Shown piece by piece: positions 47-20,385 of a stretch of DNA of 64,000 bases. The position numbers and the translations under genes are program-made. The notes beneath the pieces are model-generated. The model was given only the letters and a program-made list of their open reading frames with translations, was not told the origin of the DNA and did no database searches. The stretch lies in the sequence record CP132210.1; one strand, given 5' to 3'. How positions within the stretch are numbered: the first letter of the stretch is position 1; each line of letters opens with the position of its first letter. This DNA is from a plasmid.

Positions 47-1324
47 ATGACTAAAGTGAACCATCTACAAAGCCTCTGTGTTATCCACGTTGACTTTGAT
101 ATTTGGAGTGGACAAACCCGTTTGTCTGCATCTGATCTCAAGCTGGGCGAGGGTGGTGAAATTCCACCGGAGAAAGTAGCTCAACTGGGGAGTAAGAAGA
201 TCTGTGATCCGGCGAAGCTGAAAGGCTTTCACCGCCTGAAAACAGAAACCCGTCGTCTCCTGTTGAAATTCGGTATGCCGTTCATGAACGGATTTGCCGT
301 CCCAGTCAGCAAGACCGATGAAATCTGTAACAAGCTGAATGAGATCAGCTTTCAGTTCAACCAACTGAAACAGGACTTCATCAACGGTTACAACAACGCC
401 GTGGATGAATGGTGTCAGGAAAACCCTGAGTACGAACGAGCTATCCGTGCCGGATCTCTTCCAAAGGAAACGGTCGAGGAGCGGATTGGCTTTGAGTTCC
501 AGGTGTTCATGATCCAGCCGGTGAACGATGATGAGGCCAACGCCAAAAGCCTTAACCGTAAGGTTGAGCGCTTGGGTGACGATCTCATCTCCGAAGTGGT
601 TCAGGAAGCGAATAAGTTCTATATGGAACGTTTGGCCGGTCGAGACCAATGTGCTGTCACGACTCGGCTGACTCTCCGTAATATCCGCGACAAGGTGGAT
701 GGACTTAGCTTCTTGAACAGCGCTTTTAACCCTCTGGTAAAGCTGCTCGACCAAACCCTCCGGGGATATGAGAAACATGCCGATGGTCGAAACATCGTTG
801 CGCCTTTCTTCTATCAGGTCGTGGCCGCTGTGCTGATCATGAGCGAGAGAGACCGCATCGAGCAGTATGCCAATGGCTCAATTACTGTAGAGAGCATGGC
901 TAATAACATTGGCGGTTCGGAAGCCCAAATGGGGGACTGTTCCAAAGATGAAAAGCCTGAACGGAAAAGCGATACATCCGGTGAGCCCACTCTTGCATTT
1001 GAGGGGGGCGAAACCAAGACGCAACAGGTAGGCGGAAACGACTCTGTTCTATCCGAACAGACTAACAGCAATGGTAACGTTGTTGACCTGGATGAAGACA
1101 TCGACAACTTCTTCAAGAGTTTTGCAGAGCGAGGCGAGGGTGAATCGGAAGATGAATCCAAGGCCGGTGATGCGATTCAAGAAGAGCGAGTTGAAGTTGA
1201 GGATGAGCCTGTTTTGCCTGGGGATACTCCGGTAGAGCAAGAACCTATCCAAGAGCTACCCACTGAGGAACCCCTCATCCAGGTGCCGCCTAAAACTGAT
1301 GATGATGACGACTGTTTCTTCTAA
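47..1324 (+). CDS. DUF3150-like protein with a strongly acidic C-terminal tail ending DDDDDCFF
   Basis: ATG at 47 preceded by GGAGTG. The same upstream element, RBS and start are repeated at 9238-9294. Read by eye as the DUF3150 family that sits beside CobS/CobT-like pairs on mobile elements. Confidence 0.65.
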   Translation: MTKVNHLQSLCVIHVDFDIWSGQTRLSASDLKLGEGGEIPPEKVAQLGSKKICDPAKLKGFHRLKTETRRLLLKFGMPFMNGFAVPVSKTDEICNKLNEISFQFNQLKQDFINGYNNAVDEWCQENPEYERAIRAGSLPKETVEERIGFEFQVFMIQPVNDDEANAKSLNRKVERLGDDLISEVVQEANKFYMERLAGRDQCAVTTRLTLRNIRDKVDGLSFLNSAFNPLVKLLDQTLRGYEKHADGRNIVAPFFYQVVAAVLIMSERDRIEQYANGSITVESMANNIGGSEAQMGDCSKDEKPERKSDTSGEPTLAFEGGETKTQQVGGNDSVLSEQTNSNGNVVDLDEDIDNFFKSFAERGEGESEDESKAGDAIQEERVEVEDEPVLPGDTPVEQEPIQELPTEEPLIQVPPKTDDDDDCFF

Positions 1325-1408
1325 TAGTCACTTCAACTAAATCGACCCGGAGGGGATAGCCATTCCCTCCAGGGGTGGACTATCTCCTTCCCTACCAGGA
1401 GAAAAGAT

Positions 1409-3205
1409 ATGTCCAAAAAACACACCATTTACAGCGCTCTACCAATCGTGGCCGCAGCCTATGGTGAAAAACTCGGTGTCAAAGTCGCCATCGGTAACGA
1501 TGACGCATACACCGATGGCAAGACCATCGTGGTTCCGAATATTCCCGACGACTATCCGCACATGGATGCTGTCTGGGGATATTTGGCCCATGAAGCTGCC
1601 CATGTCCGGTTTACGGACTTTGGTGTTGAACGCCGCAGAGGCCTTCATGCTGAGTTGTCCAACATTTTGGAGGACTGCCGCATAGAACGCGCCATGATGG
1701 AGCTCTTCCCAGGCACTTCACAGACCCTGAATGAAGTCGCTCGCTACATGGCTCAAGCCGGTCATTACGAACACGTCACAGATAAAGAGGCTCCGGCCTC
1801 CATTCTGACTGGGTTCTGCTTGTACTGGCTGCAAACCAAGGCTGTAGGGCAATCCGTCCTTCAACCCTATCTCGATTCGGCTACCTCCGTATTCGAGCGC
1901 GTGTTTCCTCAAGGGGTTGTTGTTCGGCTGAACGCTTTGCTGCGTAAGGCTGTGAACACTAAGTCAACCGCAGAGGTGACATCCTTGGCCGACAAAATCA
2001 TCAAGATGATCGAGGAGGAAAAGGAGAAAGAAGAGCAGAAGCCTAAGAATGGTGAGGATGGTAACAATCAGCAGAATGCTGGTAGCAACCAATCTCAGAA
2101 CAATCAAGGCGGAGGTGGGAACGATCAAAACCAAGGGCAAGGTGCCAATGGTGGTGATCAGCAAGGCAAAGACCAGAAGCAAGACGATGCTGGTGGAAAG
2201 TCTGATCCGAAAGGGCAAGGCGACCAAAGCAAGTCGGATACTGATGGTGGCAGCAAGGCTGGACAAAGCCAGGCTGGTGGCAATTCTGACGCAGCAAAGC
2301 AAGATGCGGCCAAAATGCTCCAGCAGGTTCTGAATGCCGGTGCCGGTGACTTGCGTGGTGACGCGCATGATGCACTTAAAGCTGAGCTCAACCGGGTGGC
2401 TCAAGATAAGGGAGACAGTAGTTATATGACTGTTCGCTCTGCTGTGAACACCCAGGATAACCCTGCTGTTGGCAAAAGCCTCGTAGGTGATGTGAAGAGC
2501 ACCACTTCAAAGATAAGAACGCAGCTTTACGGATTGGTCCAGGCCAGCCAGCGAGTTGCTCACCGCAACCAACGATCAGGAAAGCGTGTGGATGCCCGGA
2601 AGCTACATCGTGTAGTGACAGGTGATACCCGCGTATTCCTCAAGCCGGAAGCCAAGAAACGCCCTAACACGGCGGTTCACATCCTGGTTGATATGAGCTC
2701 CTCGATGGCCTACAAGGCCGCCAATGGAAAGGAGCGTCAAGATATTGCGCGGGAAGCATCCTTAGCTATTTCTATGGCTCTGGAAGCGATCCCCGGCGTA
2801 AATCCGGCAGTCACCTTTTTTGGTGGCAACCGGAACCAGCCAGTGTTCAGTGTCGTGAAGCATGGAGATACGGTTCAGAATCGGGCCGGTCGGTTTGGGT
2901 TCAAAGCAACTGGCGGTACACCTATGGCGGAAGCTATGTGGTATGCAGCCTTTGAACTCACCAAGACCCGTGAAGAGCGGAAAATGTTGATCGTAGTGAC
3001 TGATGGGCAGCCTCAAAGCGCCCCTGCATGTCGCTCTGTGATCGACCTCTGTGAACGAAGCGATGTTGAGGTGATAGGCATAGGGGTAGAGACTACCGCA
3101 GTGTCAGGACTGTTCCAAAAGAACATTGTCATTGACGATGCGGCAGCTCTGCAACGCACACTGTTTAAGCTGATGGAGCGGTCACTGACTGCTTTTGCGG
3201 CCTAG
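1409..3205 (+). CDS. CobT-like von Willebrand factor A (VWA) domain protein with a long Gln/Asn/Gly/Asp/Lys-rich disordered linker
   Basis: AGGAGA RBS. C-terminal VWA signature: VHILVDMSSSM...GGTPMAEAMWYA...LIVVTDGQP. A low-complexity stretch spans about residues 195-300. Confidence 0.75.
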   Translation: MSKKHTIYSALPIVAAAYGEKLGVKVAIGNDDAYTDGKTIVVPNIPDDYPHMDAVWGYLAHEAAHVRFTDFGVERRRGLHAELSNILEDCRIERAMMELFPGTSQTLNEVARYMAQAGHYEHVTDKEAPASILTGFCLYWLQTKAVGQSVLQPYLDSATSVFERVFPQGVVVRLNALLRKAVNTKSTAEVTSLADKIIKMIEEEKEKEEQKPKNGEDGNNQQNAGSNQSQNNQGGGGNDQNQGQGANGGDQQGKDQKQDDAGGKSDPKGQGDQSKSDTDGGSKAGQSQAGGNSDAAKQDAAKMLQQVLNAGAGDLRGDAHDALKAELNRVAQDKGDSSYMTVRSAVNTQDNPAVGKSLVGDVKSTTSKIRTQLYGLVQASQRVAHRNQRSGKRVDARKLHRVVTGDTRVFLKPEAKKRPNTAVHILVDMSSSMAYKAANGKERQDIAREASLAISMALEAIPGVNPAVTFFGGNRNQPVFSVVKHGDTVQNRAGRFGFKATGGTPMAEAMWYAAFELTKTREERKMLIVVTDGQPQSAPACRSVIDLCERSDVEVIGIGVETTAVSGLFQKNIVIDDAAALQRTLFKLMERSLTAFAA

Positions 3206-3319
3206 TGTGTGTAAATAAACGCGGTCGCCCATTTTGGGTGGCCGCCATTTTTTAACCTAGCAGGGGCGTCCTATCTCCTGTTAGGAGGGGGAGCCTCTTT
3301 TGAATAGAGAGCAACTCAA

Positions 3320-3808
3320 ATGTCTGTACTTACTTTTAAAATCCATGATGTGAAAAAGTTGATTGAAGAGCTTGATGCAGCAAGCAGTTTTTCACCATCA
3401 ACGGACGATTTGTTCAATCCTGAAATGTACTCTGACGGCATAGTCAGGGATAAAAATGGAAGGACTGAGCAGGAAGCTGAAAAACATGGCGGGATGTTCT
3501 GGCCTTCAGAAGACTTTATTGACCAGAGCAAAGTTAAACCCGCCTTGATTTTGGTAGGAGATCATGGAGTTTACCTCATCACTAATGCAAAAGCTGATGG
3601 GTCTCCAAGCTCTCGCGGAACAGTCGCTTATGCTAAGGGCTGTAATCCAAGGCTCGATGATGATTTCTACGAAAATAAATGCAACTTGTTTGGTGGTGAT
3701 GATGGTTCGGTTCGCATCCCTTCTGAATGGGCCCGGTGGGCTATCCAGAACCAGAAGGCGTTTCGGATCAAATTGACCACAAACTCGGTTGAGCTGATGC
3801 AGGGGTAA
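3320..3808 (+). CDS. hypothetical protein
   Basis: 162-aa ORF, co-oriented, family A element upstream. Confidence 0.5.
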   Translation: MSVLTFKIHDVKKLIEELDAASSFSPSTDDLFNPEMYSDGIVRDKNGRTEQEAEKHGGMFWPSEDFIDQSKVKPALILVGDHGVYLITNAKADGSPSSRGTVAYAKGCNPRLDDDFYENKCNLFGGDDGSVRIPSEWARWAIQNQKAFRIKLTTNSVELMQG

Positions 3809-3873
3809 TACAGGTAATCCCTGTTGATGTATACGGTCGTCGGTAACGATGGCCGTTTTTATTTGGAGAATCT

Positions 3874-4206
3874 ATGAACCAATTCCATCGGTTGGATTTG
3901 TATCATCAGAACAAGGGTAGAAGAGCATCTGAGCCTGATACACCTTTCTTACTGCTTGCCAAACGCATCCCTCCAATGTACTGGAGACTGTTCCAGGGTG
4001 TCACACTGGATAGTCGTATGGGGTACACCGGCAAGCGGCAGTTCCACGGTCTTGGGCAAGCAATCAACTGGGCAAAATCATCAGTTGGTTATTCCTGGTC
4101 AAACAAGCACTTTCATAAGCCCGTAGACCTCGATCTTTTGCTGGCCTGTACTGCGAGTAAGTTGCCTGAACATCTGGTCGAAGATCTGAAAAGACGGGGC
4201 AATTGA
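3874..4206 (+). CDS. hypothetical protein
   Basis: 110-aa ORF with GGAG RBS 7 nt upstream. Confidence 0.5.
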   Translation: MNQFHRLDLYHQNKGRRASEPDTPFLLLAKRIPPMYWRLFQGVTLDSRMGYTGKRQFHGLGQAINWAKSSVGYSWSNKHFHKPVDLDLLLACTASKLPEHLVEDLKRRGN

Positions 4207-4407
4207 TGCGTCTTTGATCTTGCACCCGAAAAGGGCAGTTTGAGCGTTCCTGTTCATGCCGCTCTCGTGGAAAAATAAAAGTGAGGAGGGGATACCCTCC
4301 CACTTTCTCAGAGGCCTTCATTGAGGGTTGCTGAGAAAGTGAATTTTGTCCTCTCTGAGGGCGAAAACGTGCGATAGCTGGTCGCCAAAAACAAACAGCA
4401 ACCTATC
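4207..4407 (+). repeat. family B intergenic module 1 (hairpin plus conserved GTAGCTGG-N-CCAAAAACAAACAGCAA core)
   Basis: Core 4343-4401 is 59/59 identical to 17941-17999. Confidence 0.7.
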
Positions 4408-4467
4408 TTGGCCCATAGGGCGCACTGCGCCTGTTGGGCAACGTGCGTCCTCAAAAAGGAGATACGC

Positions 4468-5007
4468 ATGTCTATCCTTGAAAAGATGAAAGCAGAAATG
4501 CTTAATCTCTCTCAAAAGCTCAAGTTACCGGAGGTTTATGCCGGTGATGTAGAGCAAGATCTAACCCTGATTGAGCAGTTCAGTGGCTATCAAATGTTAT
4601 GGGTGCTCAGAACCTGTGGTTCGGCATTGATACCGTTAAAGGCCGGAGTTCACCCTGTTCATGTTACTCACTGGATCTGGGGTAATTCAGGGCAACAAAT
4701 CTTTGTGTTTCATGTCAATACGCAGCACGGAACCATAGAGAAAGTTGACTTCGAGGAAGCTGAACGTCTCATCATGCAGCAACCTTGCCATTTGAGCTCT
4801 TCAATGAAGCGCGAAGAGATAATCAGCTATGTTGATCGTGTTCTATCTAATGGCTGCAACCTTCGTATATGGGGTGTTTTTGACTCACCGAAACACTCTT
4901 GTTCGGTCGGGGACTGGTCACAATGGCAACAGTATTTCAGATCGTCAGGTAATCACCTGATGGCCGATTTTATTGGTAAAGCCATTCGATTCACGAACCC
5001 TCGATAA
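4468..5007 (+). CDS. hypothetical protein
   Basis: AAGGAG RBS then ATG at 4468. First gene after family B module 1. Confidence 0.55.
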   Translation: MSILEKMKAEMLNLSQKLKLPEVYAGDVEQDLTLIEQFSGYQMLWVLRTCGSALIPLKAGVHPVHVTHWIWGNSGQQIFVFHVNTQHGTIEKVDFEEAERLIMQQPCHLSSSMKREEIISYVDRVLSNGCNLRIWGVFDSPKHSCSVGDWSQWQQYFRSSGNHLMADFIGKAIRFTNPR

Positions 5008-5588: not shown

Positions 5589-5661
5589 TCTTAATCCCTA
5601 ACCAGGGGCGAACCAGCCCCTGATGGGAGCATGGTGCGCCCCATCTACGATGGAGGACGCC

Positions 5662-6546
5662 ATGTTCAAATCATCAGTATGCTCCTACGAAAATAGGGGG
5701 CCTTACGGAAACAACAAGTACCGAGGCAATTGCTCTGGCTTCATCATAAAAGACTTTGTTGAGTCCTACATGAGGAGGCCGAATGGGCTGGTGGCAGACC
5801 CCAGTGTTGGGGGCGGCTCAAGCATCGACGTTGCCAATGAACTTGGAATCCGTTTCAAAGGGACAGACTTGCATCAGGGTTTCAATCTGTTGCGGGATGA
5901 CTTCCTTTCGTTCCTCGGAGAGCCTGCACACCTTATCTGGTGGCACCCTCCTTACTGGGACATGATCCAGTATTCAGGTAAACAGTGGGGAGAACCCAAC
6001 AAATGGGACATGAGCCGCATGAGTTTGCCTGAGTTCGTTGAAGCCCTTGAGTTGGCTGTTATGAACATTCATGACGCTTGTGAGCAAGGGGGACATTACG
6101 GAATCCTCATGGGGAACCTGAGGCGCGATGGGGATTACTTCAACCTGTCCAGCCTTGTGGAACGTATCGCACCTGGAAAGCTGGTGGATGAAATCATCAA
6201 AACACAGCACAACTGTGTGAGTGATCGAACTCAGTATTCCGGGAAGCTAGTGCGCATCGCCCATGAGAAGCTGTTGGTGTTTCGTCGTAACGACGTTGCC
6301 TCATCGCTCTGTCTTCTTGCTGCCGTACACCGCCGATCAACCAACATGGTTTCGACTACGTGGAAAGCTGCAATACGCCGAACCCTACAGGGGAAAACGT
6401 TGAAGCTGGAGCAGATTTACAAAGAGATTGAACCCTACGCAAAGCATCGAGAGAACAACCACTGGCAAGCAAAGGTCAGGCAAGTTCTTCAAGATGCCAG
6501 GTTCTTTAGTCGCATCGAGGTAGGTGCCTATGCACTTGCTGAGTAG
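5662..6546 (+). CDS. putative DNA amino-methyltransferase (N6-adenine or N4-cytosine)
   Basis: GGAGG RBS. Motif I-like DPSVGGGSS followed by motif IV-like WHPPYW (DPPY-type). Confidence 0.6.
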   Translation: MFKSSVCSYENRGPYGNNKYRGNCSGFIIKDFVESYMRRPNGLVADPSVGGGSSIDVANELGIRFKGTDLHQGFNLLRDDFLSFLGEPAHLIWWHPPYWDMIQYSGKQWGEPNKWDMSRMSLPEFVEALELAVMNIHDACEQGGHYGILMGNLRRDGDYFNLSSLVERIAPGKLVDEIIKTQHNCVSDRTQYSGKLVRIAHEKLLVFRRNDVASSLCLLAAVHRRSTNMVSTTWKAAIRRTLQGKTLKLEQIYKEIEPYAKHRENNHWQAKVRQVLQDARFFSRIEVGAYALAE

Positions 6547-6611: not shown

Positions 6612-6836
6612 ATGAACATACAACTTCAAGCCAACAACATTGTTCTGTTGGCGCAAATCGAAAACAAAGGCCTCACTGTTGAAACGCATTGTCGCAGTGG
6701 CTTTTGTGGCATGTGCCGGGTTCGTCTAATCGAAGGTCAGGTGGCCTACGAAGAGACCCCCATCGCACTTGTCAAAGAAGGGGAAGTGTTGGTTTGCTGC
6801 GCTAAAGCAAAAACCGATGTGACCTTGGAAATTTAA
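6612..6836 (+). CDS. YfaE-like 2Fe-2S ferredoxin
   Basis: 74 aa. Cys cluster CRSGFCGMCRV plus a distal Cys pair (VCC). AAGGAG RBS. Confidence 0.6.
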   Translation: MNIQLQANNIVLLAQIENKGLTVETHCRSGFCGMCRVRLIEGQVAYEETPIALVKEGEVLVCCAKAKTDVTLEI

Positions 6837-9671: not shown

Positions 9672-11297
9672 ATGGCTACTATCGTAAACACCAAGTTAGG
9701 AGAACATCGAGGCAAGAAGCGCGTCTGGCTGGAAGGCCAAAAGCTGCTGCGTGAGGGGTACTATCCTGGCATGAAGTACGATCTGGAGTTGAAAGATTCC
9801 CAGGTTGTGCTTCGCGTCAAAGAGGAAGGTAAATTCACAATCAGTAAGCGTGAGCGCAATGGCCGAGTGTCTCCAATCATCGATCTGACCGCGCAAGAGC
9901 TCGCTACCGTTTTTGACGGTGTTGAGATGCTCCGCGTGTTCATTCGGAATGGCGCAATTGTAATCTCCGCTCATCATCAACAAGAGCGAGTGATCGAGCG
10001 CGTCAACCGGCTTATCAGCAAGCTGGAGAATGGAGAATCGCTTTCGGTATGCAGCCTCTTTCATGGGGGTGGGGTGCTTGATAAAGCGATTCACGCCGGT
10101 TTTCACAAATCGGGAATTGCCAGCGCCATATCAGTGGCCGTAGAGATGGAGGGTAAATACCTCGATTCGTCTTTGGCAAATAACCCGGAGCTTTGGAACG
10201 AAGATTCAATTGTTATCGAATCGCCAATCCAGGCTGTGAATCTCAGCAAGCGGCCACCGCAGGTGGATGTTTTGATGGGGGGGATACCATGTACTGGCGC
10301 ATCAAAGTCAGGTCGCAGTAAGAACAAATTGGAGTTTGCCGAATCGCATGAGGAGGCCGGGTCCATGTTCTTTAACTTCCTGCAATTCGTAGAAGCGCTT
10401 AACCCAGCCGTTGTGCTGATTGAGAACGTGCCTGAGTACCAGAACACTGCTTCGATGGAAGTGATCCGTTCGGTACTCTCTTCGTTGGGTTACTCCCTAC
10501 AAGAGCGCATTCTCGACGGCAATGAGTTTGGGGTGATTGAACGCCGCAAGCGTCTTTGTGTTGTTGCGCTTTCCCACGGGATCGACGGTTTTGAACTTGA
10601 AAAGGTTCAGCCTGTTCGTACCAAGGAAAGCCGCATCCAGGACATTCTTGAGCCGGTGCCGCTCGATTCTGAACGTTGGAAGTCATTTGACTATCTGGCT
10701 GAGAAGGAGTTGAGAGACAAAGCTGCTGGCAAGGGATTTTCTCGTCAGCTTCTGACTGGCGACGATGAGTTTTGCGGCACCATAGGGAAGGACTATGCAA
10801 AATGCAGAAGTACCGAACCTTTCATTGTTCATCCGGAACAGCCTGAGTTATCTCGCATTTTTACACCGACAGAACATTGTCGAGTGAAAGGGATACCTGA
10901 GGAACTCATCCAAGGTCTGTCGGACACCGTAGCTCATCAGATTCTCGGGCAATCGGTAGTCTTTCCCGCGTTCGAGGCTTTAGCCCTCGCATTAGGGAAC
11001 AGTCTTTGGAGCTGGGTGGGAATGATGCCAATCATGGTCGAAGTCGTGGATGAATCACAGCCGGTGATCGGTGGTGATGACTTCCATTGGGCAACGGCAT
11101 TGGTTGACGCAAAGGGCACGCTAAAGCTGTCACCGGCAGCTCAAAAACAGGGGATGCCCTTCAACATTATGGACGGTCAATTGGCTGTCTATTCACCTAA
11201 CGGAACCCAAAAGAGCTGCGGCCATAAGCCTTGCGAATATCTTCCGGTAATGATGTCCGGAGACGCAATCATGGTCACTTCATCTTTGGTTCATTAG
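9672..11297 (+). CDS. DNA (cytosine-5) methyltransferase with N- and C-terminal extensions
   Basis: Motif I LFHGGGVL, motif IV GGIPCTGASKSG (catalytic PC), motif VI ENV. AAAGGAGAGAG RBS. Confidence 0.85.
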   Translation: MATIVNTKLGEHRGKKRVWLEGQKLLREGYYPGMKYDLELKDSQVVLRVKEEGKFTISKRERNGRVSPIIDLTAQELATVFDGVEMLRVFIRNGAIVISAHHQQERVIERVNRLISKLENGESLSVCSLFHGGGVLDKAIHAGFHKSGIASAISVAVEMEGKYLDSSLANNPELWNEDSIVIESPIQAVNLSKRPPQVDVLMGGIPCTGASKSGRSKNKLEFAESHEEAGSMFFNFLQFVEALNPAVVLIENVPEYQNTASMEVIRSVLSSLGYSLQERILDGNEFGVIERRKRLCVVALSHGIDGFELEKVQPVRTKESRIQDILEPVPLDSERWKSFDYLAEKELRDKAAGKGFSRQLLTGDDEFCGTIGKDYAKCRSTEPFIVHPEQPELSRIFTPTEHCRVKGIPEELIQGLSDTVAHQILGQSVVFPAFEALALALGNSLWSWVGMMPIMVEVVDESQPVIGGDDFHWATALVDAKGTLKLSPAAQKQGMPFNIMDGQLAVYSPNGTQKSCGHKPCEYLPVMMSGDAIMVTSSLVH

Positions 11298-13120: not shown

Positions 13121-15574
13121 ATGCAACAAGCATTAAACTTTGACCTACCAGAACAACCAACCCCAGTGCTCTTGCGAGGGGATAAGTGGGACTCTGTTTG
13201 GTCAGAACTGACTGATAACGAGGATTTGAACTTCGTTGATGCCAGTAGAGGAACCAGCTTGTCATCGTTGATCACGTCATCGGTTGAAGCCATTCACACG
13301 GCCTTGAACGATGGGTGGACCATGATGGTCGGCTATTCCAGTGGTAAGGATTCTGAAACGGTTTTGCATCTGTTTCTGATGGCTCTTGTCCGGGCGGTTA
13401 GGAGTGGAGCAACCATCAGCCAACACCACTTCATCTTGCACACTGACACACTGATAGAAAGCCCAGAAGTAAGATGGCTGGCGGATCAGAAACTGGCCGA
13501 GTTGGAGCGTTTCATTGTGAAGGAAAACCTTCCTCTGACCATCGTTCTGGCAAAGCCGGGGATCACGCAGAGTTGGACGGGCCGAATCCTTACGGGGAGG
13601 GGGTTGCCTACATTTTCCAACTCTTCGGCCCGTCAGTGTAGCCAAGAACTCAAAATCACCTCAGCCAAAAGAGCGAAGGCGGCTTATATGCGAGAACTCC
13701 CCAAGGATGTTCGGCAGAAAGTGTGCCTCCTGTTGGGGAGCCGTGATGCTGAAAGCGCTATTCGTGCAGCCAACATTGCAAAGCAGCGAGGAAGCTCAAA
13801 TCGCGTCATTAAGACGAAAGATGGGGGGGAGCTGTATGTGGTGAAAAACTGGTTGGCGAGTGATGTCTGGGAGTTCTTGCTATCTGCTGGCATGGGCTCA
13901 CCATACCCCCTGCCAAGTTACCTAGAGAGCAATGTCACTACGGCAGAGCTCTACAAGGCAGCGACGGGGGAGTGCGTGTGGTCGGCAACAGAGAAAAAGG
14001 CCAGTGATGCGTGTGGTGCTCGCTTCGGTTGCTGGGCCTGCCAAGCTGTAGGGTTGGATAAGTCGATGGAGACATTGCTTGCCACAGACCCTGAAAGGCA
14101 TGGCTACATGTCTGGGCTGAACCGCATCCAGCGCTACCTGGCAAAACGCCGGTACGCTTGGGAAGATCGCCATCCCGTAGGTCGAACGATTTATGAGGGG
14201 GGTTACATCAAAATACAGCCGGACGTTTACAGTCCTGTTTTCCTTGAGCGATTGCTTCATGTCTGTTGCAGCATGGACTACATGGAGCAAAAAAGAGCTG
14301 ATGAGCTTGCTTACAAGCTGGCTACTGGGCAAGCCGAGGATAACGACTGGAACCGTCGAATGGCAGAGCCGCAATTCCGGATCATATCGGAAGAAGCTTT
14401 AGTCCATATCGACTTCATGTGGGCCTTCCATCATTTCAATGATAAGCCTTTCCATGCCCTGGAGATTTACCACAGGGTTTGGTCGATGGGTGATCTGGAT
14501 TTGCTGGAAGATGAGCCGCAGTGCGAAACCGTTCCTCAGTCACCAATTCCGAAACCATTGTGGTTGAGAGTTGGGCGCTGGGGCGATGGTTCGCTGTCTG
14601 ATGGCTTGGCCGACCCGTTAGCGGAAATGGCTTACTTTGACGGCGGGGATGACCCGTTGGCAGTGAAAGTTATCAATACCGCAGATGGAAAGAGAAGGGT
14701 GGTTTGTTTCGCAGAGGATGATGAGGTGAAGGTCGATCCCGACTCCGCTGCATTCATCATCTGGAATGAATACCCGCGACTTAGGGAGTCGGTACTAAAG
14801 GGAAATTATACGCCCGGTAGTGCTGCTCAGTTCTACCTTCGGTTCGGAGCCATCCAGCTTGCGAAAGGAAAAGGCGCTTTGTATCACCGCATGATGCAAA
14901 GAGGTCAAACCTACCACCAGATGGGCCTTACAGGGCTACAGACGATGGAAGGAATCCAACAGCGCAAGGACCTCAAAGTGCTTTGTGATGACAAGTACAA
15001 AGATCTGGTGAAGCGAAAAATCAAGGGAAGACTGGCTACGGTACGCTGGTGGATCAACTTGCACTTAACGTTCAAGTACCACCTGCACCACCGGACTCCG
15101 ACGGGGTTATTCGTCGAGAGGCAACTTGACCAGGAAGCAATGGAAGAGCAGAAACGGCACCAGGAGCGATGGTTTAACTACGTGACTGACGCGATGCTCT
15201 GTTACTCCAGCGCATTCTGTATGAGCGTCATGGAGGGGCGAGAGGGAAGCGGAAACGCCAACATCCGTCGTTACATGGCTGCGACCAGAAGAAAGGCTTA
15301 TACGGCCCTCTGTGAGCTCCTACGCCACACTAACGCCCTCTGGGCGACAGATGTGGCCTTGAGTGCTGTAGGGAAGTATGAGGAGATACAGGCAGCCCTA
15401 ACCGAAGGTTCCGCGCTGGCTACCTACCTCGACTGGATCAACCTACTATCAAAACGTCATCCAGCCTCTTTGAAGCGACATGTCAGAACGATGATCAAAG
15501 TGGTTCAACGACTACATCGCCGCGACGACACAATGTTGCAAAGAGGACAGCAAGGCTTGTCCTTGGCCGCATAA
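13121..15574 (+). CDS. PAPS reductase-family (PP-loop ATP pyrophosphatase fold) protein with large C-terminal extension; DndC/IbrA-like
   Basis: N-terminal PP-loop motif GYSSGKDSETVLHLFL. 817 aa. CAGGAGG RBS. Confidence 0.7.
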   Translation: MQQALNFDLPEQPTPVLLRGDKWDSVWSELTDNEDLNFVDASRGTSLSSLITSSVEAIHTALNDGWTMMVGYSSGKDSETVLHLFLMALVRAVRSGATISQHHFILHTDTLIESPEVRWLADQKLAELERFIVKENLPLTIVLAKPGITQSWTGRILTGRGLPTFSNSSARQCSQELKITSAKRAKAAYMRELPKDVRQKVCLLLGSRDAESAIRAANIAKQRGSSNRVIKTKDGGELYVVKNWLASDVWEFLLSAGMGSPYPLPSYLESNVTTAELYKAATGECVWSATEKKASDACGARFGCWACQAVGLDKSMETLLATDPERHGYMSGLNRIQRYLAKRRYAWEDRHPVGRTIYEGGYIKIQPDVYSPVFLERLLHVCCSMDYMEQKRADELAYKLATGQAEDNDWNRRMAEPQFRIISEEALVHIDFMWAFHHFNDKPFHALEIYHRVWSMGDLDLLEDEPQCETVPQSPIPKPLWLRVGRWGDGSLSDGLADPLAEMAYFDGGDDPLAVKVINTADGKRRVVCFAEDDEVKVDPDSAAFIIWNEYPRLRESVLKGNYTPGSAAQFYLRFGAIQLAKGKGALYHRMMQRGQTYHQMGLTGLQTMEGIQQRKDLKVLCDDKYKDLVKRKIKGRLATVRWWINLHLTFKYHLHHRTPTGLFVERQLDQEAMEEQKRHQERWFNYVTDAMLCYSSAFCMSVMEGREGSGNANIRRYMAATRRKAYTALCELLRHTNALWATDVALSAVGKYEEIQAALTEGSALATYLDWINLLSKRHPASLKRHVRTMIKVVQRLHRRDDTMLQRGQQGLSLAA

Positions 15575-15576
15575 AA

Positions 15577-15718
15577 GGCCCTCCTTCGGGAGGGCTTTTT
15601 CTTTTGCACCCCAAAAGGGCAATTACAGCGTTTTACCCTTTTAAGGTGGCTGTCATACTCTTTGCTCATTGTCAGCGCTTGCTGGCTATAACGGTAGCTG
15701 GCCCAAAACAGCAATAAC
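15577..15718 (+). repeat. family B intergenic module 4
   Basis: Terminator GGCCCTCCTTCGGGAGGGCTTTTT followed by core ACGGTAGCTGGCCCAAAACAGCAA at 15691-15714. Confidence 0.6.
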
Positions 15719-15979: not shown

Positions 15980-15984
15980 CGAAG

Positions 15985-16029: not shown

Positions 16030-16050
16030 CCAGCCAATTTAGGAGGCACT

Positions 16051-16656
16051 ATGTCTGATTCAAATTTCGGCTTTCTAGCTCTGGCCTTGCGCCAACGCCT
16101 GATCAAGCGCTGGTCGCTGATGCACTCTGTTCAACCAGAGTCTGTGTTGGAGCACAGCGCTGTTGTTACCTTGCTTTCCTACCTGGCTGGCAATATCGCC
16201 ATTCAGCAAGGGAAGTCGGTGGATCTGGCAATCATGCTGGCTCATGCGTCGTTGCATGATGCAGCCGAGGTTCTTTGTTCGGATGTTGTCACGCCGGTCA
16301 AGAAAGCAAATGCTGTTTTGCAGCGTGAGTTTGAACGACTGGAAAAGGCCGCAGAGGACAAACTTATCCAGACTCTTCCCGAAGAACTCCAGGATGCAGT
16401 TTCCAGAGCCTTTGCTCCCGGTGGCTATGAACAATCACTGGTTAAGGCCTGTGATACCTACTCCGCTTACATCAAGTGCAAACTTGAGGTGGCCGCAGGT
16501 AATGGCATTGAGTTCCAAGATGCTCTCAGCAAAATGGAACGTATTGTTGCTCAGGTGAAATTGGACTTCCCGGAAATCGACGCTCTGGACAAATGGTTTG
16601 GTGACGGACTGGGCCATTCAGTAGATAAATTGCTGGCCGGGGGTAACGATGACTAA
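16051..16656 (+). CDS. YfbR-like HD-domain 5'-deoxynucleotidase
   Basis: Collinear with E. coli YfbR: RWSLM..ESVLEHSAVV..LAHASLHDAAEVL..GD(V)VTPVK. TTAGGAGG RBS. Confidence 0.7.
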   Translation: MSDSNFGFLALALRQRLIKRWSLMHSVQPESVLEHSAVVTLLSYLAGNIAIQQGKSVDLAIMLAHASLHDAAEVLCSDVVTPVKKANAVLQREFERLEKAAEDKLIQTLPEELQDAVSRAFAPGGYEQSLVKACDTYSAYIKCKLEVAAGNGIEFQDALSKMERIVAQVKLDFPEIDALDKWFGDGLGHSVDKLLAGGNDD

Positions 16657-16921
16657 TCCAATCGCTGGCGACATCAAGATTAAGAACTTTGGCCGTGACC
16701 GGAAATTTCGTTCGGTTGATGAGCTTCAAGGCACTTTGTCTGAACAGTACAAAGGTCAGCATGTCAGTGTCGTTTACCCTACAAAGCCTCACGGATTACT
16801 CCGTACCGTCTTTGTCAGTGTTGATGATGCCGGTGGCATAAATGAGACTTACGGAAAGCAGTCTCCAGTCGATTTTAATGCCATCAAAGATGACCTGTTT
16901 GTACCAAGTGTACTGAATTAA
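16649..16921 (+). CDS. hypothetical protein
   Basis: ATG overlaps the stop of the upstream gene (coupled). 90 aa. Confidence 0.45.
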   Translation: MTNPIAGDIKIKNFGRDRKFRSVDELQGTLSEQYKGQHVSVVYPTKPHGLLRTVFVSVDDAGGINETYGKQSPVDFNAIKDDLFVPSVLN

Positions 16922-17000
16922 GCCGCAAGGCTTCTTAACCCCACGGGGGACATCTGTCCCTGAGGGGGGGGTGTCTCCCTCTGAAACTAAGGAGATACCA

Positions 17001-17861
17001 ATGATTAAGCAGCATTTTCAAAACGAACTGGTCAAATGCGGATACCCTGATGACCTGACCATTGAGTACCGTCTTGGGTACTGTCAGGGTGATGGAGTGG
17101 CATTCTACGGATGTTTGGGTGTTGATAATGCTCAGGCGTTGATGAAGCGCTTGTTAAGCACCACAAAGGGGCAAGTAGATGCTGTCAGCAGAGTGAAAAA
17201 CCTGATAGCACAAAAAGACATTGACAATATGTTTCTTGTCCTTCGTGAGTATGCTGAGCTCCAGTTCTGCGAACTGGACATCAACAGAAACAGCTACGGC
17301 CATCATTACAGTCACTGGAACACCATGCGTATTGATAGCAACGTAGACTTCACTGGGATCTTTCCTGATGATGACACCATGCTTGGAACAGGCATCGAAG
17401 GGATTGACCAAGCGATGTTAGAGCGTTGGCAAGGCATCTGGGAGCGTTTCGTGTTGGAACTGTCGGGTGATGTTAAACAGCTTTCCAAGAAGCTCGAATC
17501 CGACGGTTATGCGTTGATAGAAGCCTCGCCACACGAAGAGAAAGTGGTTTGGGAACGGACTACTCAAAATTACTTGGTGCGAGTGACAGAACTCCCTGAA
17601 CGGGATTTCGACATGGACCACTGGGATGACGACATCAGAGACCAAACGATTCGTTCTATCCTGGAGGGAAAAGAGCGAGTGCTTGGCCTACGTGTTGAGG
17701 TGCTCTCTCGTGAAAACGAGATTGTTCTGGGTGAAGAGAGTCTGCACGGTTTGACCGTTGCCAGTGATGACAAGAGCTACGCTGGCTACAGACGAGAACT
17801 CCTCCGGGGCGCTATCCAGCAAACCAGAGATTTTTTCTCTCGCCACCTCAAAGCGGCATAA
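17001..17861 (+). CDS. hypothetical protein
   Basis: TAAGGAGATACCAATG, 286 aa. Confidence 0.55.
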   Translation: MIKQHFQNELVKCGYPDDLTIEYRLGYCQGDGVAFYGCLGVDNAQALMKRLLSTTKGQVDAVSRVKNLIAQKDIDNMFLVLREYAELQFCELDINRNSYGHHYSHWNTMRIDSNVDFTGIFPDDDTMLGTGIEGIDQAMLERWQGIWERFVLELSGDVKQLSKKLESDGYALIEASPHEEKVVWERTTQNYLVRVTELPERDFDMDHWDDDIRDQTIRSILEGKERVLGLRVEVLSRENEIVLGEESLHGLTVASDDKSYAGYRRELLRGAIQQTRDFFSRHLKAA

Positions 17862-17865
17862 CAAA

Positions 17866-18000
17866 GCAGGGGGAAACCCCTGCTTTACTCCCCAAGTCTC
17901 CTTACTCATGGTGAAGCCATCAGTAAGCAGATTTTGTCCTCTCTGAGGGCGAAAACGTGCGATAGCTGGTCGCCAAAAACAAACAGCAAATTAACGTTAA
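17866..18000 (+). repeat. family B intergenic module 5
   Basis: Terminator-like AGCAGGGGGAAACCCCTGCTTT, then a 59-bp core identical to module 1. Confidence 0.7.
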
Positions 18001-18093
18001 AAATCTCGGCTTTGGCCGTGATCTTTCAATAACCCATGCGGGTACACCTCCCCGCACGGGCTAGGTGTACCCATTAACTTTGGAGTACACCTC

Positions 18094-18480
18094 ATGAACC
18101 AAGTAGCTAAATTGGACCTCGCCCAAATCCGTCAACAAGCCATCAATGATGGACTGCTGGTGGACCAATCCTCCATCGGCACACAAGCTGGTTTCCTGAC
18201 CAATGTGGCAGTGACCCCAGCCATTGTCGATGGAGTATTTGGTGCGGATGGTAAGCACTCGGCAGAAGACTTCCTTCTCATGTTTTTGCAGCTTTGTGTT
18301 GCCCAAACAAAGGTCGCTTTTACCGACAACAAGAACTGGGGAAAGATTCGCCTCTATTACCCCATGCCCACTGTAAATGGCTTTTTCAAACCCACTGAGG
18401 TTGTGATTAAGTCAGACCCTGTAACCGCAGATGTCACAATCATGATGGCCTCAGAAGAGGGCACCCATTTGTGTTTGTGA
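18094..18480 (+). CDS. hypothetical protein
   Basis: TTTGGAG RBS. First gene after family B module 5. Confidence 0.5.
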   Translation: MNQVAKLDLAQIRQQAINDGLLVDQSSIGTQAGFLTNVAVTPAIVDGVFGADGKHSAEDFLLMFLQLCVAQTKVAFTDNKNWGKIRLYYPMPTVNGFFKPTEVVIKSDPVTADVTIMMASEEGTHLCL

Positions 18481-18657
18481 TGTTCACAAAATTCGCCTCC
18501 GTCTCGGGGGCGATCTTTTTAAACCCCTCGCCGGGGAGTTCTCCCCGGCTGGGGAGCCTCCTTGGCACATCCTCCCGGTGTCGGGGTTTCCTTAAAACCC
18601 TGGCGACGGGGGTTTAAGGAAGCCTCGATGCTGGGGTTCACGCTAAGGAGAAAACCT

Positions 18658-20385
18658 ATGTCTTACTACAAAGCTGACACCGTTCGTGAAGCTGCAAACG
18701 GAAACTGGCTATTCATCCTGGCGGCTCTAGCGCCCCATCTTGAACCAGCTCTCCGTAAACCAGGTCGTCATGTTTCTTGCCCTATCCACGGTGGGAAAGA
18801 TGGCTTCCGCCTGTTCAAGGATGCCCACCTGACTGGTGGCGGCGTATGCAATACATGCGGTGCTAATCATGACGGTTTTGAGTTGCTGATGTGGCTCAAT
18901 AATTGGGACTTTAAGCAGTGTCTGAGCGAGGTTGGTGATTATCTGGGAGTTGAGAAAGAGCAACCCCAGTGTCAACAAGCCGCTGCACCGACACGAGCTC
19001 CTGCACAGGCCAAAGCGCCTGTTCAGCAAGGGCCCATGAAGGTGAATAACAAGGTCCTCGATTCCAAGAATCGCAAAAAATCCATTGCCGGTACTCTGAT
19101 TGCCCACGGTAAAGCTCCCTATGAGCATAACGAAGACAATGAGCTCAGCTACTTTGCCTTCATCCGTGACAGGAGCGGTTTGGAACGCACCATTTGGGGC
19201 GTGGATCTTGAAAGAGCCATCGGTGAAAGCGAAGCCAAGTATGGTGATGAGGTCGTCATGACAAACCTCGGGCGCGAGCCTGTAACTGTCGTCGTTGAAG
19301 TTAAGGACGATCAGGGGAATGTTGTGAGAGAACAACCTATGCAAACGCATCGCAACACCTGGCTGGTGGAACGTCGTGGCGCTTCGGTGACGCAGTTCCG
19401 CGCACGCTCAAACGGTGGTGTTGAGTCGGTGAGTCACCATGTTGAGTTGCCCCCTGTGGTCAACCGCACGGTAGAAGCTCCGGCACCGCAAGCACAAGCT
19501 TCGGCCATACAACTGGAAGGGCAAAGCAGCGAAAACAAGCCGAAAGTTGTTCCAATGTTTCGTGAACAACCCAAGCCTTGGTTGCTTGAGCTCCAAGAGG
19601 AAATGGAGAAGAGAATGGAGCGTGAACGCGCTTACAGCGCTCGCCTCCGTGAGAAAATTGAGAAGGTATGGAACGAGTGTTTGCCGTTCTCTAGTCGTGT
19701 GACTGAACCAATGCGTCTGTATTTCAAAAACCGCGAGCTGCTGTTCAACGTTGATGAAGTAGAAAAAACAGACTGTTTGCGGTTCAATCCGGCTATGCCC
19801 TACTACGACGAAGATGGCAATGAAGTTGGGAAATTCCCGGCTATCGTCTGCGCTATCCGAGATGTGGAAGGCAACCTGGTAACGCTCCACCGCACCTATC
19901 TCACCCAAAACGGTAAAAAAGCCAAGGTTGGCAACGCCAAGAAAATGATGCCCATTCCTGACGGCTTGGATGTTAATGGCGCGGCCATCCGCCTCGGTGA
20001 ACCGAGTGAGGGTATCCTGGGTGTTGCAGAAGGGCTGGAAACGGCTCTGTCCGCTTATCGAGTCACTCAAATTCCGGTTTGGTCAACGGTCAATGCGACC
20101 CTGATGGAGTCCTTCGAGGTTCCAGAAGGTGTTCACACAGTATTGATCTGGGCTGACAAAGATAAGTCTGTGACTGGTGAAAAGTCAGCTAACGTGCTGA
20201 AAGCCAAGCTGGAGAAGCGCGGCATTCGTGTTTACGTCCTGCTGCCTAAACTCCCAATCCCACCCAGAGCGAAAGGGATTGACTGGAACGATGTCCTGAT
20301 GAGTCAGGGAAGCCTCGGTTTCCCAAATGCTCGCTACCTGCGCGATTTTATTGCGAGAAGGAGAGCTGAGTATGCCCGTCATTGA
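18658..20385 (+). CDS. DNA primase (P4-alpha-type zinc-ribbon N-terminus plus C-terminal TOPRIM domain)
   Basis: CPIHGGKDGFRLF...CNTCG Zn-ribbon. TOPRIM-like EGILGVAEGLETALS...LIWADKDKS. CTAAGGAGAAAACCTATG. Confidence 0.7.
   Translation: MSYYKADTVREAANGNWLFILAALAPHLEPALRKPGRHVSCPIHGGKDGFRLFKDAHLTGGGVCNTCGANHDGFELLMWLNNWDFKQCLSEVGDYLGVEKEQPQCQQAAAPTRAPAQAKAPVQQGPMKVNNKVLDSKNRKKSIAGTLIAHGKAPYEHNEDNELSYFAFIRDRSGLERTIWGVDLERAIGESEAKYGDEVVMTNLGREPVTVVVEVKDDQGNVVREQPMQTHRNTWLVERRGASVTQFRARSNGGVESVSHHVELPPVVNRTVEAPAPQAQASAIQLEGQSSENKPKVVPMFREQPKPWLLELQEEMEKRMERERAYSARLREKIEKVWNECLPFSSRVTEPMRLYFKNRELLFNVDEVEKTDCLRFNPAMPYYDEDGNEVGKFPAIVCAIRDVEGNLVTLHRTYLTQNGKKAKVGNAKKMMPIPDGLDVNGAAIRLGEPSEGILGVAEGLETALSAYRVTQIPVWSTVNATLMESFEVPEGVHTVLIWADKDKSVTGEKSANVLKAKLEKRGIRVYVLLPKLPIPPRAKGIDWNDVLMSQGSLGFPNARYLRDFIARRRAEYARH

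What the first reader, a model, noticed from the sequence alone, without database searches (positions are those of the whole stretch)
47..20385. Candidate DNA-modification or anti-defence gene set without recognisable restriction partners
The array encodes a DUF3150-like protein, a CobT-like VWA protein, a putative amino-methyltransferase (5662-6546), a C5 cytosine methyltransferase with extra N- and C-terminal domains (9672-11297), an 817-aa PAPS-reductase-family protein (13121-15574), a YfbR-like 5'-deoxynucleotidase (16051-16656), a YfaE-like ferredoxin (6612-6836) and a primase (18658-20385). The putative CobS-like AAA+ partner would lie upstream of the window. No endonuclease, helicase or SMC-like ATPase partner is visible. 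Orphan methyltransferases on mobile elements classically act as broad anti-restriction self-protection. PP-loop (PAPS-reductase-fold) enzymes are the core of DNA backbone or base modification pathways such as DndC or SspD. An HD dNMP hydrolase could bias the nucleotide pool toward or away from a modified nucleotide. Together these may make up an undescribed DNA hypermodification or anti-defence module rather than unrelated cargo.
Basis: inference. Interest (0 to 1): 0.7.

Follow-up and report, generated by a model that had tools for sequence, protein, structure and literature searches.

The report
Known IncA/C plasmid anti-restriction backbone
This 20-kb stretch is the already-sequenced, conjugation-induced accessory backbone of IncA/IncC multidrug-resistance plasmids: a mosaic of separate genes that help the plasmid establish in new hosts, plus one common but unexplained DndC-like enzyme, and not one new DNA-hypermodification pathway.

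Summary
The genes are real and mostly named correctly. Window 1-20500 is 100% identical to IncA plasmids and gene-for-gene syntenic with IncC pVCR94 (vcrx094-vcrx122).

Published IncC work covers much of it:
- All these genes are induced roughly 100- to 3000-fold by the conjugation master activator AcaCD. The two mapped AcaCD boxes are conserved here.
- Deleting the ortholog of the C5 methylase (dcm1) made an IncC plasmid about 2700-fold more sensitive to EcoRII.
- The "CobS-like" partner upstream is Vcrx089, a published anti-type-I-restriction ATPase.
- Bet/Exo-repaired IncC plasmids lacking vcrx089-vcrx119 stay transmissible.

New here:
- MoxR-DUF3150-VWA is a conserved block across distant MOBH plasmids. 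The stretch from VWA to traF is variable.
- The 817-aa protein is DndC-like, with a PP-loop and conserved cysteines. It travels alone on about 2800 plasmids and has no conserved neighbour or NTPase partner.
- pAQU1 keeps dcm3, YfaE and YfbR but has only remnants of dcm1 and the DndC-like gene.
- Terminators and separate promoters split the array.

Verdict: observation confirmed; anti-restriction reading partly supported; single hypermodification module not supported. The DndC-like enzyme's function remains open.

The parts
47..1324 (+). DUF3150 protein (ortholog of pVCR94 vcrx094). It has a folded N-terminal domain and a disordered acidic tail with conserved DIDxFF and C-terminal DxxDxFF motifs.
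   Evidence: Pfam E 4e-89. 91% aa identity to vcrx094. It always lies next to a VWA gene, and usually next to a MoxR ATPase, in distant MOBH plasmids. Tail.
1409..3205 (+). CobT-like VWA protein (vcrx095), the likely adaptor partner of the upstream MoxR-type ATPase Vcrx089.
   Evidence: VWA and CobT Pfam hits. 97% identity to vcrx095. Conserved MoxR-DUF3150-VWA synteny.
3221..3245 (+). Strong intrinsic-terminator-like hairpin that ends the hde/DUF3150/VWA transcription unit.
   Evidence: 11-bp stem with 8 GC pairs followed by a T run.
3320..3808 (+). DUF3085 protein (vcrx096), followed by a second terminator at 3833-3856.
   Evidence: Pfam E 1.6e-16. Terminator. It recurs near DndC-like genes of IncHI2-type loci and in pAQU1.
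4218..4245 (+). AcaCD activator box of the vcrx098-type promoter.
   Evidence: The core is identical to the ChIP-exo-mapped site 75267-75295 of pVCR94.
4334..4401 (+). Conserved leader repeat (rptI of Roy 2020). Further copies lie at 8734-8801, 12514-12581 and 17922-17989.
   Evidence: Repeat family D1. The spacings of the pVCR94 copies equal the published Bet/Exo deletion sizes. It contains a hairpin with two compensatory pairs.
4468..5007 (+). vcrx098 ortholog, the first gene after the AcaCD promoter. It is unusually divergent.
   Evidence: Only 53% aa identity to IncC, against 84-98% for its neighbours. No family hit.
5623..6546 (+). dcm3 (vcrx100): a divergent amino-methyltransferase with motif I before an atypical HPPY motif IV, plus a C-terminal DpnI_C-like winged helix. 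Its specificity is unknown.
   Evidence: 924 bp, as in Wang 2019. 96% identity to IncC.
6612..6836 (+). YfaE-like 2Fe-2S ferredoxin (vcrx101).
   Evidence: NCBIfam YfaE equivalog, 89.9 bits against a cutoff of 75. The Cx4Cx2C...C cysteines are visible in the translation.
9672..11297 (+). dcm1 (vcrx109): an orphan C5-cytosine methyltransferase with extra N- and C-terminal regions. Its IncC ortholog protects against EcoRII.
   Evidence: PF00145 E 6e-29 over residues 128-441. PC and ENV motifs. 98% identity to pVCR94 WP_000201432.1. Knockout primer match at 9650-9674. Phenotype.
13121..15574 (+). Solo DndC-like PP-loop/Fe-S enzyme (vcrx113) with a family-specific C-terminal half that includes a basic helical domain. 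Its function is unknown.
15577..15598 (+). GC-rich hairpin followed by a T run directly after the DndC-like stop codon; it looks like a terminator.
   Evidence: Read from the sequence. The scan reported the same hairpin on the minus strand.
15604..15632 (+). AcaCD activator box of the vcrx114-type promoter, which drives the unit containing YfbR.
   Evidence: Identical to the ChIP-exo-mapped site 86650-86678 of pVCR94.
16051..16656 (+). YfbR-type HD 5'-deoxynucleotidase (vcrx115).
   Evidence: NCBIfam equivalog, 127.5 bits against a cutoff of 122; Pfam YfbR-like E 3e-38. Retained at 76% identity in pAQU1, which has lost the DndC-like gene.
18493..18513 (+). Terminator-like hairpin ahead of the primase gene.
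   Evidence: 9-bp stem with 7 GC pairs followed by a T run.
18562..20385 (+). Plasmid primase (Zn-ribbon, DUF7146, Toprim_3). It is part of the ancestral MOBH block that directly follows VWA in some distant elements.
   Evidence: Pfam. Primase or toprim gene directly after VWA in the Marinobacter and Hydrogenophaga plasmids.

Best explanation
The region is the conserved accessory backbone of an IncA (pRA1-type, MOBH/MPF_F) conjugative plasmid. It corresponds to vcrx094-vcrx122 of IncC pVCR94. It is a mosaic of independently acting establishment and anti-restriction genes that are switched on together with the transfer genes by the master activator AcaCD.

Three units can be read:
1. The tail of the hde operon, DUF3150 and VWA. 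Inferred: these are partners of the upstream MoxR-type ATPase Vcrx089, which with Vcrx090 blocks type I restriction (shown in IncC).
2. A unit starting at the AcaCD box at 4218-4245 that carries dcm3, YfaE, dcm1 and the DndC-like gene. Shown in IncC: dcm1 methylation protects against EcoRII. Inferred: the donor methylates the plasmid before transfer, so the entering strand is protected.
3. A unit starting at the AcaCD box at 15604-15632 that carries YfbR. It is followed by a primase that would prime complementary-strand synthesis in the recipient (inferred from family).

The DndC-like enzyme is probably an active ATP-pyrophosphatase/Fe-S protein that acts alone on a nucleic-acid substrate. Its reaction is unknown. 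YfaE and YfbR most likely tune the deoxynucleotide supply (inferred).

The stretch between VWA and traF is an accretion hotspot, positionally like hotspot 3 of SXT/R391 elements.
For: - Identity: 100% nt identity over 20.5 kb to IncA plasmids, and 912 related plasmid records. Gene-for-gene synteny with pVCR94 at 84-98% aa identity, except one gene at 53%.
- Regulation: AcaCD ChIP-exo sites lie upstream of vcrx087, vcrx098 and vcrx114. RNA-seq values without and with AcaCD: vcrx094 5 to 2868, dcm3 1 to 1288, dcm1 4 to 2677, vcrx113 6 to 979, yfbR 50 to 6412. The two boxes are conserved in the window. Sigma-70-like promoters are depleted, 3 against 15.3 +/- 3.8 expected.
- Function: dcm1 knockout gives about 2700-fold more EcoRII restriction. 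Deleting vcrx089-090 gives 400- to 900-fold more EcoKI/EcoBI restriction. A triple dcm deletion lost transfer.
- Mosaic origin: MoxR-DUF3150-VWA is contiguous in 5 distant MOBH plasmids at 25-32% identity, and DUF3150-VWA-primase in a sixth. It is followed by 0-9 unrelated small genes and then traFHG in three of them. SXT/R391 hotspot 3 lies between s073 and traF.
- Independence of the DndC-like gene. Gene loss pattern in pAQU1.
- Dispensability: the repeat spacings of 23,702, 10,310 and 9,268 bp in pVCR94 equal the published Bet/Exo deletion sizes. The commonest rescued plasmids lack vcrx089-vcrx119 and remained transmissible.
- Purifying selection on all measurable ORFs.
Against: - All functional data come from IncC orthologs, not from this IncA plasmid.
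- The role of DUF3150 and VWA in anti-restriction is inferred from synteny only. Complementation with vcrx089-090 alone restored the deletion mutant, but that plasmid still carried vcrx094-095.
- dcm3, YfaE, dcm1 and the DndC-like gene may be co-transcribed from one AcaCD promoter, so a functional link between some of them is not excluded.
- The methylome study of Wang 2019 gave no clean motif for any of the methylases.
- The region lies 49-65 kb from oriT, so early expression in the recipient is an assumption.
Confidence: 0.75

Rival explanations
1. One reading: the methylases, DndC-like enzyme, YfaE ferredoxin and YfbR nucleotidase together form one undescribed DNA hypermodification pathway.
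For: - dcm3, YfaE, dcm1 and the DndC-like gene lie between one AcaCD box and one terminator and are all AcaCD-dependent.
- A ferredoxin could in principle serve an Fe-S enzyme.
- The order is conserved between IncA and IncC.
Against: - No co-occurrence outside IncA/C in 17 loci.
- pAQU1 retains dcm3, YfaE and YfbR but only a 59-aa remnant of the DndC-like gene and a 126-aa fragment of dcm1.
- YfbR is in a different transcription unit, behind a terminator and its own AcaCD box.
- No base-modifying enzymes such as a TGT/DpdA, a hydroxymethylase or a glycosyltransferase were found.
- YfaE and YfbR score as orthologs of housekeeping enzymes.
Confidence: 0.07
2. The DndC-like protein is a self-sufficient DNA (or transferred-strand) modifying enzyme, for example a phosphorothioating or thiolating enzyme. 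Its own C-terminal basic domain would replace the DndD/DndE-type partners, and it would act as a broad anti-restriction device of conjugative plasmids.
For: - PP-loop SGKDS and the Cys cluster are conserved with sequences labelled DndC.
- Confident model with a basic helical C-terminal domain, pI 9.8.
- Found on 2785 plasmid records, 2154 of them conjugative, often among establishment-type genes (RadC, N6 methylase, DndB-like).
- AcaCD-induced.
- Under purifying selection, dN/dS 0.09.
Against: - Every established phosphorothioation system needs a P-loop NTPase beside the PAPS-reductase protein, and isolates lacking that pairing (PAPS-reductase protein plus Dnd/Ssp/Brx-type NTPase) lacked PT. 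None is in the window, and none of the DndD/SspC/BrxC type is annotated in the parts of reference plasmid p253A read.
- Scores are far below the DndC equivalog cutoff.
- The gene was lost from pAQU1.
- It is dispensable for transfer in the laboratory.
- No modification signal attributable to it was seen in Wang 2019.
Confidence: 0.15
3. The genes are neutral hitch-hiking cargo with no role in plasmid biology.
For: Plasmids lacking the whole block are still transmissible. Most small ORFs have no family.
Against: - dN/dS of 0.03-0.39 for all measurable ORFs.
- Conserved across IncA, IncC and partly pAQU1.
- Tightly controlled by AcaCD.
- Measured anti-restriction phenotypes for dcm1 and the adjacent hde genes.
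Confidence: 0.03

Closest known systems
IncC plasmid pVCR94 backbone, vcrx094-vcrx122 (AcaCD regulon; Carraro 2014, Roy 2020)
   Same: Same genes in the same order at 84-98% aa identity, the same AcaCD boxes and the same rptI leader repeats.
   Different: IncA rather than IncC replicon. The vcrx098 ortholog is only 53% identical. pVCR94 has a few extra small ORFs between yfbR and the vcrx119 ortholog.
DndC of the Dnd phosphorothioation system (also SspD, and BrxP of BREX type 4)
   Same: PP-loop ATP-pyrophosphatase core with a conserved Cys cluster; PAPS-reductase fold.
   Different: About 25-30% identity. Scores are below the equivalog cutoff. It has about 350 extra C-terminal residues. There are no DndA/D/E, SspB/C or BrxC/Z/L partners, and it travels alone on plasmids.
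Orphan anti-restriction methyltransferases of conjugative plasmids and phages
   Same: No cognate nuclease. The IncC ortholog of dcm1 protects against EcoRII. CCWGG sites are not avoided in the backbone, 73 against 75 +/- 9 expected.
   Different: It lies 49-65 kb from oriT rather than in the leading region, and it is controlled by AcaCD. dcm1 carries unassigned N- and C-terminal regions.
MoxR AAA+ / VWA chaperone pairs (CobS-CobT, NorQ-NorD, RavA-ViaA)
   Same: An AAA_5/CbbQ_C ATPase with a CobT-like VWA protein that has a MIDAS motif.
   Different: It always comes with a DUF3150 protein of unknown fold. It sits on MOBH conjugative elements next to SSB/RecT/Exo. The ATPase has an anti-restriction phenotype, not a metal-insertion role.
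SXT/R391 ICE region s063-s073 plus hotspot 3 (s073-traF)
   Same: The same block of ssb/bet/exo/ATPase genes is shared with IncA/C, followed by a variable insertion site before traF.
   Different: In IncA/C the variable stretch is fixed across the family and much longer. I did not align SXT sequence here, so the equivalence is positional and rests on the literature.

Membership tests
IncA/IncC conjugative plasmid backbone (AcaCD regulon block) | Near-identical DNA and synteny with typed IncA/IncC plasmids | tested here: met
   100% identity over 20.5 kb to plasmids typed IncA, MOBH, MPF_F. Synteny with IncC pVCR94.
IncA/IncC conjugative plasmid backbone (AcaCD regulon block) | AcaCD-binding boxes upstream of the vcrx098- and vcrx114-type genes | tested here: met
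   Window 4218-4245 and 15604-15632 match the ChIP-exo-mapped pVCR94 sites. Binding itself was not tested in IncA.
Dnd DNA phosphorothioation system | DndC: PP-loop ATP pyrophosphatase with a Cys cluster | tested here: inconclusive
   The domain and motifs are present, but TIGR03183 scores 121.6 bits against a cutoff of 290.4. It is DndC-like, not a DndC equivalog.
Dnd DNA phosphorothioation system | Adjacent DndD-type P-loop/SMC-like NTPase (and DndE, DndA/IscS) | tested here: not met
   No such protein among the window ORFs or in 17 homologous loci. Requirement stated in PMC12914056.
Dnd DNA phosphorothioation system | Phosphorothioate linkages in DNA | not testable with these tools
   Needs LC-MS/MS or iodine cleavage.
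Ssp / BREX type 4 phosphorothioation systems | SspB/SspC or BrxC/BrxZ/BrxL partners; DUF4007 fused to the PAPS-reductase domain | tested here: not met
   No PADLOC or Pfam hits to these. The C-terminal half matches only its own family.
Orphan C5-cytosine DNA methyltransferase (anti-restriction) | Complete C5-MTase motifs (FxGxG, PC, ENV, QxRxR) | tested here: met
   PF00145 nearly full length, E 6e-29. The motifs are visible in the translation.
Orphan C5-cytosine DNA methyltransferase (anti-restriction) | No cognate restriction endonuclease nearby | tested here: met
   No nuclease family hit in 1-23.5 kb.
Orphan C5-cytosine DNA methyltransferase (anti-restriction) | Protects the plasmid against a restriction system | not testable with these tools
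   Shown for the 98%-identical IncC ortholog against EcoRII. Not tested for this plasmid.
MoxR-VWA AAA+ chaperone system | VWA protein with a MIDAS motif, encoded with a MoxR-class AAA+ ATPase | tested here: met
   VWA domain and DMSSS motif. AAA_5 plus CbbQ_C ATPase upstream in the IncA reference plasmid. Contiguous in 5 distant plasmids.
Aerobic cobaltochelatase CobS/CobT/CobN | CobN subunit and a cobalamin pathway context | tested here: not met
   No CobN or cob genes in the window or in the parts of reference plasmid p253A read. The CobT_C match is below threshold.
Leading-region anti-defence island of plasmids (Samuel and Burstein 2024) | Location within the first genes to enter, next to oriT | tested here: not met
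   mobI/oriT lies at about 133 kb of the 134-kb reference plasmid and the region at 64-84 kb, so 49-65 kb away either way.
YfbR 5'-deoxynucleotidase / YfaE ferredoxin | Score above the NCBIfam equivalog cutoffs and catalytic residues present | tested here: met
   YfbR 127.5 against 122; YfaE 89.9 against 75. The HD motif and four Cys are visible in the translations.

The most novel reading that the evidence does not exclude
Two readings remain open.

(a) The solo DndC-like protein (vcrx113 family) is a self-contained nucleic-acid-modifying enzyme. It is found on about 2800 plasmids, including IncA/C and IncHI2. It would work without the NTPase partner that all known phosphorothioation systems need, which would make it a new kind of plasmid counter-defence.

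(b) DUF3150 and VWA are missing subunits of the Vcrx089/090 anti-type-I-restriction machine, giving a four-part MoxR-based anti-restriction system conserved across MOBH elements.

The probability given is for (a). I would put (b) at about 0.5, with lower interest.
Probability: 0.15. Interest if true: 0.7.

Novelty: already known. Interest (0 to 1): 0.3.

Why it matters
IncA/IncC plasmids are major carriers of carbapenemase genes; this window itself carries a blaVIM-1 integron. Their broad host range depends on getting past restriction and CRISPR. The region explains part of that, and the main parts are already published (dcm1, and the adjacent hde operon). Two questions remain: what a DndC-like enzyme does on its own on thousands of plasmids, and whether DUF3150 and VWA complete the MoxR anti-restriction machine. 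Both can be tested with existing IncC genetics.

Tried and rejected
- **Fold of DUF3150.** The AF2 model is good for the domain, but Foldseek against the PDB gave no hit with E below 0.09.
- **Small ORFs.** PHROGs and Pfam on the 20 or so small ORFs gave essentially nothing.
- **Rfam on 1-24 kb.** No family matched the leader repeats. I considered an ops/JUMPstart-like reading of the GCGRTAGCTGG core but did not test it beyond this.
- **Leading-region hypothesis.** Rejected from the position of oriT.
- **Cobaltochelatase reading of CobT.** Rejected because there is no CobN and no cob context.
- **Roy 2020 Tn-seq table.** The supplementary table is not held, so per-gene insertion data for vcrx094-122 could not be read.
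- **First search for related loci attempt.** It failed on a too-divergent alignment and was repeated with closer sequences.
- **AcaCD consensus scan.** Counting matches alone was not significant, 5 against 3.8 expected. The two sites were accepted only after they matched the published mapped sites.

Full report
**1. What is there**

The region holds about 25 same-strand ORFs.
- DUF3150, CobT-like VWA, an amino-methyltransferase, a Fer2/YfaE ferredoxin, a C5 methylase whose Pfam domain covers only residues 128-441 of 541, a YfbR-type HD nucleotidase and a Zn-ribbon/Toprim primase.
- The 817-aa protein barely touches Pfam PAPS_reduct (E 0.005, below threshold). It is clearly DndC-like in PADLOC (E 5e-42) and NCBIfam (TIGR03183 E 4e-35), though far below the equivalog cutoff (121.6 against 290 bits).
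- No nuclease, helicase or SMC-like ATPase was found among the ORFs.
- Against an IncC-type relative, 24 of 25 ORFs have dN/dS of 0.03-0.39. The 25th is saturated. So even the small unknown ORFs are real genes.

**2. Identity**

- Window 1-20500 is 100% identical to several plasmids typed IncA, MOBH, MPF_F. It is about 90-95% identical to hundreds of IncC plasmids.
- It is gene-for-gene syntenic with IncC pVCR94. DUF3150 is vcrx094, VWA is vcrx095, dcm3 is vcrx100, YfaE is vcrx101, dcm1 is vcrx109, the DndC-like gene is vcrx113 and YfbR is vcrx115.
- Just upstream of the window lies the hde operon: Vcrx089 (AAA_5 plus CbbQ_C ATPase), Vcrx090, then bet and exo. An ssb gene sits between them in pVCR94; none is annotated in the IncA reference plasmid p253A.
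- oriT/mobI lies next to repA, 49-65 kb away. This is therefore not a leading region.

**3. What is already published for the IncC orthologs**

- *Regulation.* Carraro 2014 mapped AcaCD sites upstream of vcrx087, vcrx098 and vcrx114. Every gene here is strongly AcaCD-dependent, for example dcm1 4 to 2677 and vcrx113 6 to 979. The two internal boxes are conserved in the window at 4218-4245 and 15604-15632. Sigma-70-like promoters are depleted, 3 against 15.3 +/- 3.8 expected.
- *hde genes.* Roy 2020 showed that vcrx089-090 block type I restriction and that ssb/bet/exo repair CRISPR-made breaks. Dimitriu 2024 confirmed 400- to 900-fold effects on EcoKI/EcoBI.
- *dcm1.* Dimitriu 2024 also found about 2700-fold more EcoRII restriction after deleting one dcm gene. 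Their knockout primer maps to 9650-9674, the start of the window's dcm1, with one mismatch. CCWGG sites are not avoided in the backbone, which fits protection by methylation.
- *Methylome.* Wang 2019 reported loss of transfer after a triple dcm deletion but no clean motifs.

**4. Is it one module?**

Four lines of evidence say no.

(i) *Synteny of the DndC-like gene.* I collected 17 loci from at least five other element families: IncHI2-type, a Citrobacter plasmid with a DndB-like gene upstream, Vibrio elements, and Kluyvera/Morganella elements. None carries any other window gene within 10 kb, apart from DUF3085 in IncHI2-type loci. No neighbour family is shared across these families. The family occurs on 2785 plasmid records, 2154 of them conjugative.

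(ii) *Gene loss.* pAQU1, a sister MOBH plasmid, keeps dcm3 (72%), YfaE, YfbR (76%) and the primase in the same order. Its dcm1 is a 126-aa fragment and its DndC-like gene a 59-aa remnant.

(iii) *Transcription units.* A strong terminator follows VWA. A hairpin with a T run follows the DndC-like stop codon and is immediately followed by a separate AcaCD promoter for the YfbR unit.

(iv) *Missing partner.* All known phosphorothioation systems (Dnd, Ssp, Tdp, BREX type 4) need a P-loop NTPase beside the PAPS-reductase protein. None is present.

In favour of some link: dcm3, YfaE, dcm1 and the DndC-like gene may share one AcaCD-driven transcript.

**5. What I add**

*A conserved MoxR-DUF3150-VWA block.* In five distant MOBH plasmids (25-32% identity) the order is MoxR ATPase, DUF3150, VWA; four of them have RecT and Exo (two also an annotated SSB) just upstream. 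In a sixth it is DUF3150, VWA, primase. MoxR ATPases normally work with VWA partners (abstracts). DUF3150 and VWA are therefore the likely partners of Vcrx089. Two published results do not contradict this:
- The Tn-seq compared Cas+ and Cas- recipients that both had the type I system, so it could not reveal anti-RM genes.
- The complemented deletion plasmid still carried vcrx094-095.

*A variable stretch.* After VWA come 0-9 unrelated small genes and then traFHG. In pPrY2001 traF follows VWA directly. VWA-to-traF is thus a variable stretch, positionally like SXT/R391 hotspot 3. In the Marinobacter plasmid, homologs of the window's 8286 and 11313 ORFs, the primase and two downstream ORFs surround the block. 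This suggests an ancestral core into which the methylases, the DndC-like gene, YfaE and YfbR were later added.

*The DndC-like protein.*
- Invariant SGKDS, with C173, C285, C298, C304 and C307 at least 90% conserved, including in sequences labelled DndC.
- A confident AF2 model, pLDDT 88.
- A PAPS-reductase-fold core.
- A family-specific C-terminal half ending in a basic helical domain.

**6. Dispensability**

The window contains four copies of a leader repeat. In pVCR94 the spacings between copies (23,702, 10,310 and 9,268 bp) equal exactly the Bet/Exo deletion sizes that Roy 2020 reported for a break placed just downstream of vcrx093. The commonest rescued plasmids (44 of 85) therefore lack vcrx089 to vcrx119. 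That is everything in this finding except the primase. They remained transmissible. The block is accessory, as expected for counter-defence genes.

**7. Verdict**

Two open sub-questions remain: the reaction of the solo DndC-like enzyme, and the role of DUF3150/VWA.

Noticed in passing
window 4334-4401, 8734-8801, 12514-12581, 17922-17989 (also window 1-62 against 9244-9307): A conserved leader element precedes each gene block. It has a short hairpin (GCGAT-AGCTG-GTCGC, two pairs with compensatory changes), then an invariant AAACAAACAGCA, then a second GC-rich hairpin before the ribosome-binding site. It equals the rptI repeats that Bet/Exo use for repair, but its conservation and position in the 5' leader suggest an additional RNA-level role. 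No Rfam family matches.
   Followed up: partly
window 4468-5007: The first gene after the AcaCD promoter (vcrx098 ortholog) is only 53% identical between IncA and IncC, while its neighbours are 84-98% identical and dS is saturated. pAQU1 has a 41% homolog at a different position. This is a possible fast-evolving host-interaction or exclusion factor.
   Followed up: no
window 890-1324: The DUF3150 protein ends in a roughly 145-aa disordered acidic tail (pI 4.1). It has a conserved DIDxFF helix and a conserved C-terminal DxxDxFF, reminiscent of the acidic tip of SSB. The IncA reference plasmid p253A differs by about 110 bp in this part.
   Followed up: partly
window 1-20000: Sigma-70-like promoter matches are strongly depleted, 3 found against 15.3 +/- 3.8 in shuffles. 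This fits a block that is silent without the AcaCD activator.
   Followed up: no
L002 2571-3686 (reference IncA plasmid p253A, outside the window): A second, shorter PAPS-reductase-family gene (371 aa, Pfam E 8e-8) lies next to repA. Two N6 methylases and dcm2 lie near parAB. The plasmid therefore carries five methylases and two PP-loop proteins in all.
   Followed up: partly
L007 8443-9558 (Citrobacter 84-kb plasmid): In one plasmid family a DndB-like gene (PF14072) sits just upstream of the DndC-like homolog, among RadC, N6-methylase and DUF4942 genes. No DndB-like gene is in the window.
   Followed up: no
L026 31176-31406 (pAQU1): pAQU1 carries a tusA sulfur-carrier gene inside the syntenic region, while its DndC-like gene has decayed to a remnant.
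   Followed up: no
window 33497-36463 and 51183-64000: The rest of the window is a resistance region. It holds a TnAs1-type Tn3 transposase and, by alignment to pIB2020_IncA, a class 1 integron with blaVIM-1, aac(6')-Ib4, aph(3')-XV, aadA1, catB2 and sul1, plus IS26 and mer genes. Backbone genes at 24-32 kb include a phosphatase, a tyrosine recombinase, HipA and a PAAR protein.
   Followed up: partly
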